Of a DNA stretch of 64,000 bases, positions 1 through 12,000 are shown piece after piece (the stretch's first letter is position 1; the number at the start of each line of letters is the position of its first letter). The stretch is taken from assembly GCA_964106915.2 (NCBI GenBank), contig OZ066914.1. The stretch is one strand, 5' to 3'. Origin of the DNA: Podarcis gaigeae (lineage: Eukaryota). Position numbers: made by a program.

Positions 1-3000
1 AGTAAATGTGTTTGAGATTAAATGCTAATCTACAGTAGTCACATCTTTGCAAAGAAAGCATCTATATATTAAAACTCCAGGACTGAACCACAGAAGGAAA
101 GAGATTATGTACCGGTACTTGCTTCAGTTAGAAGAAAGGGGACATGGTTAACCCTTTTATAGTTACTGCATTTGTGGAAAGCAGTGGAGAATTTCCTCTG
201 CTACAGGGTTCTATCCACATCAACATGGGAATGTTATTTGCCAGCTGCATAAAGTATATTACTAATTCCTCTGTTACAACAGCATCATTCCTGGTATGGA
301 AAAAAAGACATTCCCACATTAAACTCATTCAGTGTCCTTGTCTGGAAAGCTACTCCCTTCATAACCTTTTAAAATAAGAAATTCATCCATTTTGCCTTAC
401 AAAAACACAGCTGTTCAACCAGGTAGGAACTTCTAGGCAGACACCCGCTATGGTATCAAGCTTAAAGTGAAACACAAGCGCCTGGTGGGCTCACCGTTAC
501 CTCCCAAGGGCAAAGCCAGATTTCTCCAAACACACCAATGCGCTTAGGAAATTGCACACGCCACTAAAAACCACACATAGCTCTTGCCACAAAGCTTGCA
601 GAAAAGCCGCTTAAGACTATGAACACCGCCCCACCTTCTAACTTGACCTCCTTTCTCACTTCTGCATCTCCTAGCAGCTTTCCTCAGTATGTTTCATGGC
701 ATTGTTGGGCCATGTGGACTGCCCCCCTAAGCGACCCACTATAAAAAACCCTCAATGTTAAGCAATAAGCCTCCCTCCCCAAGAAACATATGTGCAACAC
801 TTTCCACAAACTGAGTCAAAAGCTGAAAGAGCACGTAAACAAGCTTTCTTGCACTAGCCAAAGGCCACAGGCGAAAACACTGTTGAAGAAACAAATATCT
901 ATAAATCTGTTTATAAAAACAGAACCTCTGCCTGAACCAGTGTTAGAAACTGAGATATGAAAGCTAGGAGCTAAATGGCACCTTAAACCTGGATTATGGG
1001 CACAACAACGGAATATCTAGGCTTTTTTATAACAAGAATACAAAGCTGAACATGAATGAACTGCAGCTAAAATATGATGTTCGTTTTTCACATTGTTTAG
1101 TCCAGGGGTCAGCAAGCTTTTTCAGGAGGCCGGTCCACTGTCCCTCAGACCATGTGGGGGGCCGGACTATATTGAGGGGAGAATGAATTCCTATGCCCCA
1201 CAAATAACTCAGAGATGCATTTTGAATAAAAGGACACATTCTACTCAGGTAAAAACACCAGGCAGGCCCCACAAATAACCCAGAGATGCATTTTAAGTAA
1301 AAGGACACATTCTACTCATGTAACAACATGCTGATTCCCAGACCCCCGCGGGCTGGACTGAGGTGATTGGGCCACATCTGGCCCCCAGACCTTAGGTTGC
1401 CTACCCCTGATCTAGTCCTTCCCTTGCCCTACCCCCCATAATATTCTTAAGAGGGTCTCTTCTCCCGTCTTCAGAGAGTAGCTGGGGGCACAAAAAGGTC
1501 CCCCTTTCCTTCCACTCTGCAGTTTTAATCTGAGGCGCAGTACTGCGCCCAGAGCTCAGAAACTGAAATCCCGTCGCAAAACGCGCCTAGAACAAGTGGA
1601 GCTCTGAACACGGACTCAAAACCACCAAAATCATGACGTGAAATAGAGGAAATCGTGGCCCTCTGCACGCCTCTTGCGAGTATTATTATTTGCGAGGGGC
1701 CCATTTCCTTTTCGCACTTGCCCTCCGTGGCGAGTATTGCGAAACGCGGTGTTGCGCGCACGGTTTTGTACTGTAAAACTAATAAAAACAAATAAAAATG
1801 GTGTTCATTTCGTGAATTATTTTTTTTGGGGGGGTGGGTGTAGCGGCTCACGCTGGTTTCTGGTCCAGAGCATTTCTCTCTCACAAACACCACCAACCCA
1901 CACACATCTTTGGCTAGGCTTCCTGTGGGTCTCCTGAGCTGAGGCCTGGAGGCCTCAGGAAAGGCGGGAGGCAGAGGCCAGAGCGGGAAGGAGGAAGGAA
2001 GAGACCGCGCCAGCGACGCCATTACGCGCAGGCCTAGCCCCGGCCGAGGCGCGCGAACCGTTGGGCCGCCCGAAGAAGGCCCTCCGGCTCCCCCGAAGCG
2101 CGTGAGGCGGAGGGGGGAGCGGAAGAGGGTTTCAGGCCCGGAGTCGAGCCGGAGAAGAAGGCCCGGCCCAACCCTCCCCGTCCCTTACCTTCGTGAGTCT
2201 TGGCGATCTTCGCCATTTTGTGTGGAGCTCGGGACAAACACAGCGAGCGAGATGGAAGGGGCCCGTCGAGCTCCGCCCACTCGTCGACGTCGACTTCCGC
2301 TATCTGGGACCGATAGGGTGTGGGGAGGGAGGAAGGCGCAAGAGTCTTGCGCAAGCGCCGGAGCAGCGCGGCTAGGTAAGCGGGTGGGGGCCGGGGTATA
2401 CGCTGGCCGAGGAAACCATAGAGACGAGAACGAGAAGGCCCTGGAAGGGTCTCGGGCCTTGCTTCCGCCCAAGCGGCCTCGAGTTTCGGCCTAGAGACGC
2501 GCGGGGTTTCTTGTGTACTGAAAAAGGCGCAGCTTCCGTTGTACCCTCAGACCCCTTGCGCGCTTGTGTTTAACATGTTTTATTACGTTTCCACAAATTT
2601 CACATAGCATTCCAATACATAATAAAACTTTTGCTTGTTTAATCGACTTCGTATCCCGTTCTTGTTGTTGTTTTCAAATTCCATCTCATTGCTGCACCTT
2701 ATCCTTCACTCTTTTATATGGTAACCATAATACAAATAGCCTCTAGTTATTTCTGTTGCTTGTAAGCTCCAGTTTCTGCTCGCAAATTAATCAAGTTACT
2801 ATATATATATATAGTAAGTGCGAAAAGGGCTTCTAACCATGAAACATCATCAGGTTACCTTATTTTAGCAGTTTTTAAAGAGTAATTTTGCTGAATCCTT
2901 GCTTGCCCATTCTTCTTTGGTGGGAACTTTCTTCAACTTTTTCCATCAGCTGAGCAGTGCGTGTGTTGGTTGCTCTCCTGTCTTGGTTTCAGTATGACTG

Positions 3001-9000: not shown

Positions 9001-12000
9001 AGGGCAATTTTAAAAAAAATTGCTTTAAAACTTCATTTAAAAAAATGTTTTCTGGTTTGTCTTCAGAGAGAAAACAGTGCTTTGTTTACAAAGAGTGCCG
9101 GTGAGCACGTGACCGTCATGGCTCGCAAGCAGATTGGAAAGTGGGAAAAGTACGGTAAAAGGTATTGCAGAGACTGGGAAAGAGAAGCTGGATTAAAAGA
9201 CTGGGTTCGGAGGGTACCAGGAGATGAGTCAAAAGCAGCATGCAGATACTGCATGTGTGAAATCAGAGCTCACCACAGCGATCTTGTGTCGCACAGTAAA
9301 ACTAAGAAGCATAAGAAGCACGTTGCGTTGCTCTCACAGCCTTCAGTGAATGTGGATAAACACTCCTTTGAGTTTGAAAAGCGGCATTCATTGCAACTTG
9401 AAAAAGAAATGTCATTTGGAGCCAAACCAGACACATTCGATGAATTCAATCATATGGAAATGAATGATTCCATAAATGTGTGTGCTCTGAAATTAGCCAC
9501 ACACATAGCTTGCCATATGAGCATTTTTACTGTTGATCACCTGGGATGTATTATTGGTGGAATGGCTGAGAAAGACATAAGCCTTCATAGGACAAAGTGC
9601 TCTACAATTATAAGAGATATCATAGGTCCTACAGTCCACAAAGAGCTGCTTCGGGATATTGGCAATGGACACTACTCCTTGATCATTGACGAAAGTTCTG
9701 ACGCATCTTCGCAGAAGCAACTTTGCTTGATGGTGCGATACTTCAGCAACAAGCTGAAATGCATTGTATCCTCCATGTAGGGTTAATTACTTTCAGTGAC
9801 ACTGATCTAATCACAGAGGCTCTCTTATCATTCCTAAACGAAAATAAGCTCAACATACAGAAGTGTGTTGGAATCGGTGCCGATGGGCTCAGCGCAAGTA
9901 TATGTGGTCATAAAAATTCGCTGCTCAAAAAGTTTTATGAACTCAATCCTTGCGGTGTTTTTATTAAGTGCACATGCCACTCCATTTATCTGTGCTTATC
10001 GAGAGCTATCGATGTGCTTCCCCTGAACCTAGAATATATGGTTGCACAGACCTACTTGTGGTTTTCTCAAAGCACGTTTCACCAGAAACGGTACGCTGAC
10101 CTGTATGCTGCTATCAACGTTGGAGAGGTTGCCCTGAAGGTGCTGCAAGTTACCGACACGCGATGGCTGTCTATTAGCCCGTGCGTTAATAGAATACTTA
10201 GCCTGTATGATACTCTGAAGTTGCATTTTCAGTCTGTAAAAGACACTGAAAAGGACTACAGTGCTGAGCTGCTCTATCAAATGTACTCTGAGCCTCTTAA
10301 CAGACTTTACCTGGTTTTTCTGCAGCCTCTTGTCCAGGAAGCAAACAGGCTCAGTAAGTTATTTCTTTTGGAAACTGCTAATCCAGTTAAACTGATTACT
10401 GAGTTAGTGATGTTCTACAAGACTCTGTTACAGAGAGTCGTGAAGCCTTCTGCCTTTCCAACATGGTCATCCATAATGAACTATGACATTAGAAGCAAGC
10501 AAAACTACCTGTCCCTCTCCGAAGTTAATCTTGGGCAAGTGTTCCTCTCGGAATTATCAGAAGCCAAAATCTCTTGCCAAATTAGAGGTGCCATTCAAAA
10601 GACGTGTCGGGATTGTGTTTTTGAGCTTGCAAACCAAATAAAGCTTCGCCTGCCCCCAGATGTGGATCATCTTCAATCGCTCACTGCTTTAAATCCTTCA
10701 GTTGTTCTGAGTCCCCTAAGACCTGCATTTTCAACTTTGTCGTTTTTGTCATTATACAGAGGGGATCACTTGCAATTGGAGCAACAGTGGAGGAATCTGG
10801 ATACAGTTTCTTGGACAAACACAGAAGATAGCCAGATAGAACAGTTCTGGGTAGAGGTTGTAAAACATACAGATGAGGTGGGAGATAAAGATTTTGTCGA
10901 GCTGGGATTATTTGCCCTTGCACTTCTCACCCTGCCCTTCAGCAGTGCAGCCGTGGAGTGTACAGTTTCACAAATGAATCTGATAAAGCACAAGCTGAAG
11001 AACAGGCCGCAGGACAGCCTGCTAGAAAATATTCTAAGGATCAGAGCTTACATGCACAGAAATAAGATTTGCTGCAACCAGTTTCAGCCATCCAAAGAGA
11101 TGCTTTCTTTGTTCAGTAGTGAATTTTATGCTGTTGCTAATAGCAAGGATGCTATAGAAGGCTACGATGATATTTTTTGAAGAAGAAAAAGTCAAGATTT
11201 TTAAAATTGCATTCTTATAAGAGCATTGAGTGACTTGTAGTTTATATGCCTTTCTGACATTCTCTTACTAATGAATTCACTGTTTTCAGTGTCATTTCCA
11301 CTGGTTTTTTCAATTCTGTGTTTTATCTGAAACATGCTGCCTTTTACTGCAGAAGTAAGATACCATTGATTAAATATGTAGTTTTGAATATACCTTGTAT
11401 TTTGCCTCTGCTGCAGGCTTCCAGGTGCTCGCAGCTAGTGAGACTGCGAGAGATCTCAGGTTCTTAAAATCTGCTATTTCATGTTACTCTCTTCTGTGAT
11501 TTAAAAATGGTCCTGCATTCTTAAAAATAGCTTAAAATCAGACTATACTACCTGGCGACAATATTTATTGTGCAGTCTTGCATGTAAAAATGCTGAAGCA
11601 GGGACTGGAATTTATAGAGCTGCCGAGGCTTGAGTCAGCTCAGTGAAATCTACTCTTCCTTTCCCTTTAATCAGCTGACTGTCACACCATATCACATACC
11701 ACTTTTGAAACACCTTTCAGTTTCAAAAGCAGTTTGGTTTTGTTTGGTGTCTGAGAACACAGAACTAGGTTTACATTTCTTTACATCCTAGCCAACATGT
11801 TTGCATCCTCTACTGTTGAGAACTAAACCAGGAAAATAAATTTACTGATGAGAAACAAACCCTAAAATTAGTATATTAAACTTAGTTTGCTTAAGTTTGC
11901 TTAATTTACCCCTCTGAAGTCAGTAGGATATTTTAATAAAAATATTGATAAGTGACTCCAAAGTTGTATCGAGCAAGGATTTAATGGTAGCTCAGTGTGT

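What the first reader, a model, noticed from the sequence alone, without database searches (positions are those of the whole stretch)
2216..9118. Transposase gene appears to borrow the SF3B1 promoter head-to-head
Seen: a strong + strand donor (CTAG|GTAAGC, 2375/2376) only about 160 nt from the SF3B1 ATG, inside its CpG island, with ETS and YY1-like motifs typical of bidirectional promoters. The nearest + strand coding exon is the transposase at 9067. Inference: a ~6.7-kb first intron links them, giving housekeeping-level expression coupled to a core spliceosome gene and a second head-to-head pair like HSPD1/HSPE1. A consensus donor (CCG|GTGAGC, 9100/9101) just before the ATG could allow the coding exon to be skipped.
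Basis: inference. Interest (0 to 1): 0.7.

Follow-up and report, generated by a model that had tools for sequence, protein, structure and literature searches.

The report
Domesticated transposase between SF3B1 and COQ10B

Summary
The window is from a lacertid lizard, not human (nearest proteins are Podarcis, 96-98%). The two donors, 2375/2376 and 9100/9101, are among the best in the window. The acceptor at 9066/9067 is ordinary.

The "transposase" is not a live transposon. It is a single-copy, hAT/Buster-type (FAM200/ZBED5-like) domesticated gene. Full-length orthologues of 675-690 aa occur in squamates and turtles, and their tree follows the species tree. The D-D-E triad and the tryptophan aligned with Hermes W319 are intact. 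In this window the ORF has one frame break at codon 221.

The gene has no CpG island of its own. The only strong islands are those of SF3B1 and COQ10B. The only outside clue ties the ORF to COQ10B: NCBI names it "COQ10B isoform X1" in two species. Nothing outside ties it to SF3B1.

The 2375-to-9067 junction cannot be tested with the tools I had. I put it at about 0.3-0.35. This is a new member of a known kind, of moderate interest.

The parts
2189..2216 (-). SF3B1 exon 1 coding part (MAKIAKTHE plus 1 nt), followed by donor AAG|GTAAGG
   Evidence: donor score 11.44. The name SF3B1 comes from my recall of the N-terminus plus the neighbours COQ10B, HSPD1 and HSPE1.
1601..2800 (.). CpG island shared by SF3B1 exon 1 and the candidate + strand first exon
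   Evidence: CpG o/e 0.77-1.11. The 400-nt windows from 1601 to 2600 have GC 0.51-0.68; the window 2401-2800 has o/e 1.06 at GC 0.45.
2211..2219 (-). YY1-like AAAATGGCG overlapping the SF3B1 start codon
   Evidence: 1 of 3 matches in the window, 1.3 expected. The consensus is recalled.
2293..2299 (-). ETS-like CGGAAGT
   Evidence: 1 of 4 matches, 3.0 expected. The consensus is recalled.
2373..2381 (+). Candidate first-exon donor TAG|GTAAGC (junction 2375/2376). The TAG also closes a 40-codon upstream ORF that starts at ATG 2253.
   Evidence: score 9.44, rank 32 of 6701. One search lists the + strand ORF 2106-2372.
2621..2626 (+). First AATAAA downstream of the 2375 donor. It could end a short upstream-antisense RNA if the donor is not used.
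2376..9066 (+). Proposed 6.7-kb first intron. It contains interspersed repeats at 4402-4612, 4904-5411, 7094-7338 and 8533-8883.
   Evidence: self-BLAST copies elsewhere in the window, 73-93% identity. The label BovB-like for 4904-5581 is my recall of the peptide. Pfam found nothing there.
5401..6400 (.). Weak CpG patch (o/e 0.58-0.69), with + strand donors at 5580 and 5861. It is an alternative promoter candidate.
9053..9067 (+). Candidate acceptor tggtttgtcttcag|A (junction 9066/9067)
   Evidence: score 6.82, rank 199 of 4244 + strand AGs.
9098..9106 (+). Donor CCG|GTGAGC (junction 9100/9101), 17 nt before the ATG
   Evidence: score 9.87, rank 22 of 6701. One search shows it is by far the strongest donor between 9060 and 11200.
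9118..9780 (+). First piece of the domesticated hAT gene: residues 1-220, a zinc finger, then the first catalytic Asp in LIIDESSD. It ends at a TAG.
   Evidence: zf-BED 19.3 bits, below the 20.6 cut-off; 215 of 221 identical to Podarcis raffonei P0001 residues 1-221.
9775..9780 (+). Single frame break at codon 221. Orthologues read SSFVGL here. The window reads SSM-stop in one frame and VGL in the next.
9777..11180 (+). Second piece of the same gene (residues 222-688 of the orthologue): second Asp, Trp, Glu and the hAT C-terminal region
   Evidence: 13 differences in 467 residues against P0001.
9326..9340 (+). Internal acceptor ctctcacag|CC (exon would start at 9340, codon 75). It could pair with donor 9100 to remove the ATG and the zinc finger.
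   Evidence: score 7.54, rank 132 of 4244. The P. lilfordi model P0006 starts at the Met two codons later. This is inference.
10746..10760 (+). Internal acceptor ttatacag|AGGGGATCAC, used by predicted isoforms in a lizard and a turtle
   Evidence: the P0006 and P0012 junctions both resume at GDH; score 6.37.
11369..11374 (+). First poly(A)-signal hexamer (ATTAAA) after the stop at 11178-11180
16401..17400 (.). COQ10B CpG island. Exon 1 runs from ATG 17137 to 17212.
17137..32606 (+). COQ10B coding exons: 17137-17212, about 22536-22686, 24341-24533, 25246-25353 and 32439-32606
   Evidence: tblastn with Hemicordylus COQ10B, P0025.

Best explanation
The 9118-11180 ORF is an old domesticated hAT (Buster / FAM200-ZBED5 type) transposase gene, not a mobile element. 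It encodes a small zinc finger, an RNase-H-like core with the D-D-E triad still in place, and a hAT C-terminal region. It lies between the SF3B1 and COQ10B CpG-island promoters, on the COQ10B strand, and has no island of its own.

Most likely (inferred) it is expressed from a + strand transcription unit that starts upstream of it and carries a short spliced leader. The divergent side of the SF3B1 island (donor 2375/2376) is the leading single candidate for that start.

The donor at 9100/9101, 17 nt before the ATG, would then act as a splice-or-retain switch. Retained, the full protein is made. Spliced to 9340, the ATG and the zinc finger are removed. Spliced further downstream, transcripts run on into COQ10B. 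That would explain why gene predictors file the ORF under COQ10B in two species. The arrangement works like ZBED6 inside ZC3H11A.

In this particular assembly the ORF has one frame break, so here the protein is either not made or the base call is wrong.

My odds: domesticated, vertically inherited gene, about 0.9. Transcripts joined to COQ10B in relatives, about 0.7. SF3B1 island as the main promoter through a 2375-to-9067 intron, about 0.3-0.35.
For: Shown:
- 8 of the 17 hits are squamate or turtle proteins. Four of those are full length (675-690 aa) at 73-96% identity over the second ORF piece.
- Their tree has 10 of 10 inner branches supported and matches the accepted species tree: turtles, then Hemicordylus, then Podarcis+Rhineura beside Elgaria+Varanus. 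The accepted tree is my recall. Branches within the clade are short and the stem from transposon-like relatives is long, 0.42.
- D191, D257, W351 and E615 are invariant in 12 of 12 aligned sequences. They align with Hermes residues at chain positions that fit D180, D248, W319 and E572 (the Hermes residue roles are recalled).
- There is one copy in the window. I found no convincing terminal repeats or target duplication.
- The only strong CpG islands between 1 and 19 kb are at 1601-2800 and 16401-17400.
- Two of the other three exact AGGTAAGC sites lie at the ends of identified exons.
- NCBI names 2 of the 6 squamate entries 'COQ10B isoform X1', in Rhineura floridana and Podarcis lilfordi.
- Predicted isoforms P0005, P0006 and P0012 splice inside the ORF. 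P0006 starts two codons after the 9340 acceptor.
- In Natator and in Hemicordylus the transposase-derived protein and COQ10B are reported on contigs of identical length.
- Precedent: ZBED6 was first annotated as a splice form of Zc3h11a, is intronless in its intron 1, and shares its promoter (passages of PMC2780926).
Against: - No transcript evidence of any kind was available, so the 2375-to-9067 junction is unobserved.
- The 9067 acceptor is ordinary, rank 199 of 4244.
- Donors as strong as 2375 also occur at 3822 and 5861 on the + strand. Several of the 48 strong donors in the window are clearly non-exonic.
- AATAAA at 2621 could end a short antisense RNA.
- COQ10B has its own island and its own first exon with the ATG downstream of the ORF. 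The ORF is therefore not inside a canonical COQ10B intron, unlike ZBED6.
- I fetched 8 squamate and turtle COQ10B proteins out of the 120 listed. Seven start with the canonical exon 1. None has an N-terminus encoded upstream of 17 kb: tblastn placed the odd one, Phrynosoma P0028, only on exons 3-5.
- No fused form of 829-2365 aa was found. The tool itself rates that as weak evidence.
- 4 of the 6 squamate entries are filed as separate genes.
- The GC-skew signature at 2250-2450 is positive (+0.27 to +0.38), but SF3B1's own side of the same island lacks the expected negative skew and the HSPD1/HSPE1 island gives a mixed profile.
- The ORF is frame-broken in this window.
Confidence: 0.45

Rival explanations
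1. The gene has its own local, non-CpG promoter in the unique AT-rich 183 nt between the repeat that ends at 8883 and 9066. The 2375 donor belongs to a short upstream-antisense or long non-coding RNA of the SF3B1 island, unconnected to the ORF. The 9100 donor is then the first-exon donor of the gene.
For: - The acceptor at 9067 is no better than chance.
- 8884-9066 is unique and A/T-rich, with TTTAAAAAAAA-type runs 50-110 nt before 9118.
- AATAAA lies at 2621, 246 nt after the 2375 donor.
- CpG-island promoters generally fire divergently without a partner gene (general knowledge, recalled).
Against: - There is no canonical TATA box, and no CpG island at 8.6-9.4 kb (o/e 0.51-0.69 at GC 0.42-0.49).
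- A strong donor 159 nt from a housekeeping ATG, with no poly(A) hexamer before it, is the configuration I recall as favouring productive elongation.
- 2 of the other 3 exact AGGTAAGC sites lie at the ends of identified exons.
Confidence: 0.3
2. The leader exon comes from the weak CpG patch at 5.4-6.4 kb (donors at 5580 or 5861).
For: - The windows 5601-6000 and 5801-6200 have GC 0.60 and 0.54 with CpG o/e 0.62.
- + strand donors CAG|GTCAGT at 5580 (8.94) and ATG|GTGAGG at 5861 (9.60) are as strong as the one at 2375.
Against: - The patch is much weaker than the two true islands (o/e about 1.0).
- It abuts a LINE-like fragment at 4904-5581.
- No promoter-like motifs stood out on reading it.
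Confidence: 0.1
3. In this species the gene is a recent pseudogene, so its transcription is of no consequence. The frame break at codon 221 is real and constraint is relaxed in lacertids. This does not exclude the other explanations.
For: - There is one frame break, and it is not in a long homopolymer.
- The lacertid branch is the longest in the squamate clade apart from the partial Varanus sequence: 0.089 against 0.044 for Rhineura.
- At 506 columns invariant in Rhineura, Elgaria and turtle there are 23 changes shared by lacertids.
- The P. lilfordi model lacks residues 1-76 and three further stretches: 3 residues (HSL), 46 residues, and the block from MYSEPLNRL to LSLYR.
Against: - The break is the only lesion. 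There are no other stops in 686 codons.
- The 5 window-private changes at deeply conserved sites are all conservative: E>D, I>V, N>D, E>Q, I>L.
- Podarcis raffonei keeps an intact 688-aa ORF.
- A single-base assembly error would look the same.
Confidence: 0.25
4. It is a recently inserted, potentially active hAT transposon with its own promoter.
For: - The DDE triad is intact.
- An imperfect 26-nt inverted repeat brackets the ORF at 9070-9095 and 11262-11287, 77% complementary.
Against: - Orthologues track the species tree across squamates and turtles.
- There is one copy in the window. Each orthologue cluster was seen on 1-2 contigs.
- No matching 8-bp duplication flanks either candidate end (read).
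- 49 inverted pairs of similar quality occur in the same 4.5 kb.
- Pfam scores are below the family cut-offs, unlike the transposon-like relatives.
Confidence: 0.02

Closest known systems
ZBED6 within ZC3H11A (placental mammals)
   Same: Both are hAT-derived ORFs without introns of their own and single-copy at a fixed site. Both are first seen in annotation as an 'alternative splice form' of a neighbouring host gene, and are expressed from a host promoter through retention of sequence that other transcripts splice out (PMC2780926, passages read). Here 2 of 6 squamate entries carry the name COQ10B isoform X1.
   Different: ZBED6 lies inside intron 1, downstream of the host's first exon and promoter. 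This ORF lies 6 kb upstream of COQ10B's own island and ATG exon. A shared promoter would therefore have to be a further upstream one, or the link is read-through. ZBED6 belongs to the other (Ac-type) ZBED lineage by my recall. It has two BED fingers, and by my recall it has lost catalysis. This protein is Buster/FAM200-like and keeps D-D-E. No expression data exist here.
FAM200A/B/C, ZBED5, GTF2IRD2 (Buster-type domesticated hAT genes of vertebrates)
   Same: Same domain set: DUF4371, the FAM200-ZBED5 RNase-like domain and the hAT C-terminal region (precomputed Pfam). The nearest Atlas clusters score 0.93-0.97. The background on ZBED5 and Buster comes only from the abstract of PMC3606216 as listed.
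   Different: No source names any of the squamate or turtle proteins as an orthologue of these genes; all 8 are 'uncharacterized', 'unnamed', 'hypothetical' or COQ10B. P0001 scores below the Pfam cut-offs: DUF4371 25.8 against 32.1, zf-BED 17.7 against 20.6. The closest non-sauropsid relative, a fish 'FAM200A-like' protein, is 55% identical. The family motif ER.FS reads EC.VS (EG.VS in Elgaria, EC.IS in turtle).
HSPD1/HSPE1 head-to-head pair (same window)
   Same: A CpG island lies between two opposite-strand genes, and a YY1-like AAGATGGCG overlaps the + strand gene's ATG at 48834-48842. The SF3B1 island has the same kind of motif over its ATG.
   Different: In HSPD1/HSPE1 both partners have coding first exons close to the island. 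Here the + strand partner would have only a short non-coding exon and a 6.7-kb intron, and it is unproven.
Upstream-antisense RNAs (PROMPTs) of CpG-island promoters
   Same: Divergent transcription from a housekeeping island, with a poly(A) hexamer at 2621 within about 300 nt.
   Different: By my recall such RNAs are depleted of strong 5' splice sites near the TSS. Here a strong site (score 9.44) comes before the first poly(A) hexamer. That favours a spliced, stable transcript but does not say what it splices to.

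Membership tests
hAT superfamily transposase (Buster / FAM200-ZBED5 type) | RNase-H-like core with the catalytic D, D, E and the conserved Trp | tested here: met
   D191, D257, W351 and E615 are invariant in 12 of 12 sequences. They align to Hermes chain positions that fit D180, D248, W319 and E572. All lie in the two window ORF pieces.
hAT superfamily transposase (Buster / FAM200-ZBED5 type) | hAT C-terminal dimerisation region | tested here: inconclusive
   A profile of A1 matches the Hermes C-terminal region at E=2e-7. 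Pfam PF05699 hits 8 of 12 alignment members but not P0001 itself.
hAT superfamily transposase (Buster / FAM200-ZBED5 type) | DUF4371 and BED-type zinc finger above the Pfam cut-offs | tested here: inconclusive
   P0001 scores DUF4371 25.8 bits (cut-off 32.1) and zf-BED 17.7 bits (cut-off 20.6). 12 of 12 members hit DUF4371 at E<=0.01. The Cys and His positions of the finger (C-x2-C, then two His) are filled in most of the aligned relatives that cover it.
Mobile hAT element | Terminal inverted repeats, an 8-bp target-site duplication, and multiple copies | tested here: not met
   The best bracketing pair is 26 nt at 77%, one of 49 similar pairs. Flanking 8-mers do not match. There is one copy in the window. 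Genome-wide copy number could not be tested.
Domesticated (host) transposase gene | Single orthologue per species, with a tree that follows the species tree over deep time | tested here: met
   10 of 10 inner branches supported, and the topology matches the accepted (recalled) squamate/turtle relationships. The 13 rows used were 7 sauropsid and 6 outgroup. P0006, P0013, P0015 and P0017 were left out.
Domesticated (host) transposase gene | Conserved genomic position (synteny) | tested here: inconclusive
   The gene is next to COQ10B in the window. The COQ10B name is used in Rhineura and P. lilfordi. In Natator and Hemicordylus it and COQ10B are on contigs of identical length. No orthologous DNA was available.
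Domesticated (host) transposase gene | Purifying selection (dN/dS well below 1) and an intact ORF | tested here: inconclusive
   The ORF is intact in 4 full-length orthologues. The window has one frame break. dN/dS could not be tested because no orthologous coding DNA was available. 73% identity between lizard and turtle with no stops argues for constraint (inference).
Bidirectional (head-to-head) promoter pair | Two opposite-strand TSSs less than about 1 kb apart in one island | not testable with these tools
   The island and motifs are present. There are no CAGE or transcript data.
Bidirectional (head-to-head) promoter pair | A splice junction joining the divergent first exon to the partner's coding exon | not testable with these tools
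   Only signal strengths are available: the donor is strong and the acceptor ordinary.
ZBED6/ZC3H11A-type shared transcription unit | ORF filed as an isoform of the host gene, with a common promoter and intron retention | tested here: inconclusive
   The name 'COQ10B isoform X1' appears in 2 of 6 squamate entries. Exon tables of those models could not be seen. The ORF lies upstream of COQ10B exon 1, not inside its intron 1.

The most novel reading that the evidence does not exclude
A reptile-wide domesticated hAT transposase still carries a complete D-D-E site. It has no promoter of its own and is wired between two housekeeping promoters. It is fired from the divergent side of the SF3B1 island, its translation is gated by splice-or-retain at the donor 17 nt before its ATG, and its transcripts run on into COQ10B. 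One + strand unit would then couple a spliceosome gene's promoter, a transposase-derived nuclease or DNA binder, and a mitochondrial coenzyme-Q chaperone. A conserved internal splice (acceptor at 10760) would make a short isoform that lacks the second half of the catalytic core and keeps the C-terminal region.
Probability: 0.2. Interest if true: 0.55.

Novelty: new member of a known kind. Interest (0 to 1): 0.35.

Why it matters
Domesticated transposases are a recurrent source of vertebrate regulators, and most known cases come from mammals. This one is unnamed and appears restricted to squamates and turtles among the annotated proteins searched. It has kept its catalytic residues since before the squamate-turtle split. 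It offers a second, independent case for asking how a promoterless transposon ORF gets expressed: by borrowing a neighbour's divergent promoter, by riding in a neighbour's transcripts, or both.

I found no paper on it. A search for COQ10B with transposase gave 7 papers, none relevant by title or abstract. A search for SF3B1, COQ10B and 'bidirectional promoter' listed 10 of 49 papers, and none held both gene names. The transposase-capture preprint does not mention COQ10, SF3B1, lizard, turtle or FAM200 in its main text. Its supplementary tables could not be opened and may list this gene.

If the promoter link is wrong, what remains is an ordinary conserved domesticated gene plus a divergent non-coding exon.

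Tried and rejected
- Structure prediction was not accepted, so no fold was made or searched.
- P0001 against PDB sequences gave 0 hits. Only the alignment profile reached Hermes.
- Pfam on 66 ORFs between 2.1 and 9.1 kb and 13 ORFs between 11.2 and 16.7 kb reached no family cut-off. I therefore saw no hidden coding exon.
- Rfam over the whole window found no RNA gene in the proposed intron. The only match was SNORA17 at 44 kb.
- Terminal repeats: I rejected the 26-nt pair bracketing the ORF as chance. It is one of 49 comparable pairs and has no target duplication.
- GC skew as a sign of + strand transcription from the SF3B1 island: positive at 2250-2450, but the internal controls were inconsistent. 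I give it no weight.
- COQ10B isoforms with N-termini encoded upstream: none among the 8 squamate and turtle proteins fetched of 120 listed.
- Fused proteins of 829-2365 aa: none at E<=1e-30 (weak evidence).
- One search used a wrong frame for the second ORF piece and its numbers are void. One search replaces it.
- An N-terminal extension from ATG 2253 is excluded. That frame ends at TAG 2373-2375, the last three bases before the donor.

Full report
WHAT THE WINDOW IS. I take the window for a lacertid lizard, not human. Its proteins are closest to Podarcis: 96% to P. raffonei for the transposase-derived ORF and 98% to P. muralis for a COQ10B exon. It holds no N.

The gene map is as follows.
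- SF3B1 exon 1 is on the - strand, with the ATG at 2216-2214 and the last exon base at 2189. The name rests on nine residues that I recall as the SF3B1 N-terminus, plus the neighbours. Exon 2 is not in the window.
- A hAT-derived ORF is on the + strand at 9118-11180.
- COQ10B is on the + strand. Exon 1 is 17137-17212 and further exons lie near 22.5, 24.3, 25.2 and 32.4 kb.
- HSPD1 is on the - strand. Cpn60 exons are at 35.5 and 42.5 kb.
- HSPE1 is on the + strand. The ATG is at 48837 and a Cpn10 exon is at 52.1 kb.
- An exon reading MVMAEG..., which I recall as MOB4, is at 61.1 kb.

THE OBSERVATION.
- The donor CTAG|GTAAGC is at 2375/2376, 159 nt from the SF3B1 ATG.
- It lies in the middle of a CpG island spanning about 1601-2800, with o/e 0.77-1.11.
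- An ETS-like CGGAAGT is at 2293-2299, and a YY1-like AAAATGGCG sits over the SF3B1 ATG.
- The acceptor tcttcag|AG is at 9066/9067, the donor CCG|GTGAGC at 9100/9101 and the ATG at 9118.

IS IT MORE THAN CHANCE? I scored splice sites with position matrices whose frequencies I recalled, so they are approximate.
- The two donors rank 32nd and 22nd of 6701 GT sites. Only 12 and 9 + strand sites score as well in 64 kb. That gives about a 6% chance of such a donor in a 300-nt stretch and under 1% in the 51 nt before the ATG.
- The acceptor is ordinary: 199 of 4244 + strand AGs score as well.
- A strong donor is weak evidence on its own. Of the 48 donors scoring at least 9.0, several lie where no exon is known.
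- On the other hand, the other two exact + strand AGGTAAGC matches sit at the end of the Cpn10 (HSPE1) exon match and at the end of the MVMAEG (MOB4) exon.
- The single motif hits are at chance frequency for the window as a whole. Only their position is notable.

WHAT THE "TRANSPOSASE" IS. It is a domesticated gene, not a mobile element.
- Of 17 proteins found with the second ORF piece, 8 are from squamates or turtles. They include full-length proteins of 688, 689, 690 and 675 aa from Podarcis raffonei, Rhineura floridana, Elgaria multicarinata and the turtle Natator depressus, at 96, 86, 86 and 73% identity.
- A maximum-likelihood tree of 13 rows (7 sauropsid, 6 outgroup) has all 10 inner branches supported. 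It reproduces the species relationships as I recall them: turtles, then Hemicordylus, then Podarcis+Rhineura beside Elgaria+Varanus. Internal branches are short and the stem from fish and caecilian transposon-like relatives is long, 0.42.
- The window holds one copy. I found no convincing terminal repeats and no target-site duplication.
- A profile of the family reaches Hermes transposase at E=2e-7. The aligned stretches place the family's invariant D191, D257, W351 and E615 opposite the Hermes positions that fit D180, D248, W319 and E572.
- The protein has drifted from its family. P0001 is below the Pfam cut-offs for DUF4371 and zf-BED. The family motif ER.FS reads EC.VS (EG.VS in Elgaria), and the turtle has lost the C..H motif.
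- The Atlas places it among FAM200, ZBED5 and GTF2IRD2-type clusters.

THE FRAME BREAK. In this window the ORF is in two pieces, 9118-9780 and 9777-11180. They match P0001 residues 1-220 and 222-688 and are separated by one frame break at codon 221. There is no other lesion. The five window-private changes at sites invariant in Rhineura, Elgaria and turtle are all conservative. The break is therefore very recent or an assembly error.

THE PROMOTER QUESTION.
- Between 1 and 19 kb the only strong CpG islands are the SF3B1 and COQ10B islands. The ORF's own upstream region is not an island (o/e 0.51-0.69 at GC 0.42-0.49).
- The GC-rich patch at 8.5-8.9 kb is an interspersed repeat.
- No poly(A) hexamer precedes the 2375 donor.
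- The 51-nt leader from 9067 to 9117 has no ATG.

Against it:
- The acceptor is ordinary.
- + strand donors as strong as 2375 occur at 3822 and 5861. The second is beside a weak CpG patch at 5.4-6.4 kb.
- AATAAA at 2621 could end a short antisense RNA.
- 183 nt of unique A/T-rich sequence just upstream of 9067 could hold a local promoter.
- GC skew at 2250-2450 is positive, but the internal controls behave inconsistently, so I give it no weight.

An ATG at 2253 opens a frame that ends at TAG 2373-2375, the last codon before the donor. No N-terminal extension is therefore possible.

THE LINK TO COQ10B. The only outside evidence concerns COQ10B.
- NCBI files the orthologous ORF as "COQ10B isoform X1" in Rhineura floridana and Podarcis lilfordi, 2 of the 6 squamate entries. 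The other four are separate genes or hypothetical proteins. Such naming implies that predicted transcripts of the ORF share exons or junctions with COQ10B mRNAs. I could not see the exon tables.
- The ORF lies upstream of COQ10B's own island and ATG exon. The link must therefore be read-through into COQ10B or a shared upstream leader.
- Seven of the 8 squamate and turtle COQ10B proteins I fetched (of 120 listed) begin with the canonical exon 1. The odd one, Phrynosoma P0028, matched the window only on exons 3-5, so none has an N-terminus encoded upstream.
- No fused protein of 829-2365 aa was found, which is weak evidence.

SPLICING INSIDE THE ORF. Predicted isoforms show that the ORF is spliced internally.
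- The lizard P0006 and the turtle P0012 both resume at GDH, after the acceptor at window 10760.
- P0006 has another junction that is canonical GT-AG in the window sequence, by my reading.
- P0006 starts at Met77, two codons after a good acceptor at 9339/9340.

From this I infer that donor 9100 pairs with acceptor 9340. The 239-nt intron would remove the ATG and the zinc finger. In the window that codon is Val, not Met.

MECHANISM AND ODDS.
- Shown: a conserved, single-copy, hAT-derived gene with D-D-E intact; no island of its own; strong donors at 2375 and 9100; annotation under COQ10B in two relatives.
- Inferred: it is transcribed from upstream with a spliced leader, and 9100 acts as a splice-or-retain switch, as in ZBED6/ZC3H11A (PMC2780926, passages read).
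- My odds: domesticated gene 0.9; transcripts joined to COQ10B in relatives 0.7; SF3B1 island as the main promoter 0.3-0.35; local promoter 0.3; 5.4-6.4 kb patch 0.1.

NOVELTY. I found no paper on this locus (see the searches and the text search). For the papers I saw only listings and abstracts. It is a new member of a known kind.

WHAT I LEFT OUT OR COULD NOT CHECK.
Each piece was searched on its own.
No orthologous DNA, synteny at base level or dN/dS could therefore be obtained.
- Cluster members and structure prediction were unavailable.
- Supplementary tables of the transposase-capture preprint were closed and may list this gene.
- Statements about U1 and poly(A) signals in antisense transcripts, YY1 sites over start codons, the squamate species tree and Hermes residue roles are recalled, not taken from a call.

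Noticed in passing
window 9775-9780 (+): There is a single frame break in an otherwise intact 688-codon orthologous ORF. Orthologues read SSFVGL here. The window reads SSM-stop and continues in the next frame as VGL. It is not in a long homopolymer.
   Followed up: partly
window 44194-44327 (-): A full-length SNORA17-family H/ACA snoRNA (105 bits, gathering score 29). It lies on the HSPD1 strand between the Cpn60 exon at 42.5 kb and the HSPD1/HSPE1 island, so probably inside an HSPD1 intron.
   Followed up: no
window 10746-10760 (+), with P0006 and P0012: The same internal acceptor, just before GDH(L/I), is used by predicted isoforms in a lizard (P. lilfordi) and a turtle (L. kempii). These isoforms skip the second half or more of the catalytic core and keep the C-terminal hAT region. 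This is a possibly conserved short isoform.
   Followed up: partly
window 9070-9095 and 11262-11287: An imperfect 26-nt inverted repeat (77%, with an outer 10 nt perfect) brackets the ORF. The left flank reads CAGAGAGAAAACAGTG, which resembles hAT ends as I recall them. There is no matching 8-bp duplication, and 49 comparable pairs occur in the same 4.5 kb, so I treat it as chance.
   Followed up: partly
window 2253-2375 (+): An ATG at 2253 opens a 40-codon frame whose stop (TAG 2373-2375) is the last three bases before the 2375/2376 donor. It matters only if a + strand TSS lies upstream of 2253, inside the SF3B1 leader.
   Followed up: yes
window 48834-48842 (+) and 2211-2219 (-): The YY1-like AA(N)ATGGCG motif overlaps the start codon of both HSPE1 and SF3B1. 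A third copy, at 42756-42764 (-), lies within an HSPD1 coding ORF.
   Followed up: partly
window 25354-25407 (+), with P0020: The UniRef Podarcis muralis COQ10B entry (194 aa) ends in [18 protein letters not shown]. This is the read-through of intron 4 and is identical to the window's translation there. The true last exon is 7 kb further on, at 32439-32606.
   Followed up: yes
window 4402-4612, 7094-7338, 15804-16061, 38669-38874, 59464-59715; 4904-5411 and 17600-18098: A roughly 200-250-nt SINE-like repeat occurs in at least five copies at 77-89% identity. Two copies of a LINE 3' end (BovB-like by my recall of the peptide) are 93% alike. One of them directly abuts the COQ10B island and inflates its apparent length.
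   Followed up: partly
window 32181, 32428, 34418, 34609: The same perfect AAG|GTAAGT nonamer occurs four times on alternating strands around the last COQ10B exon and its downstream region, which suggests copies of one repeat in both orientations.
   Followed up: no
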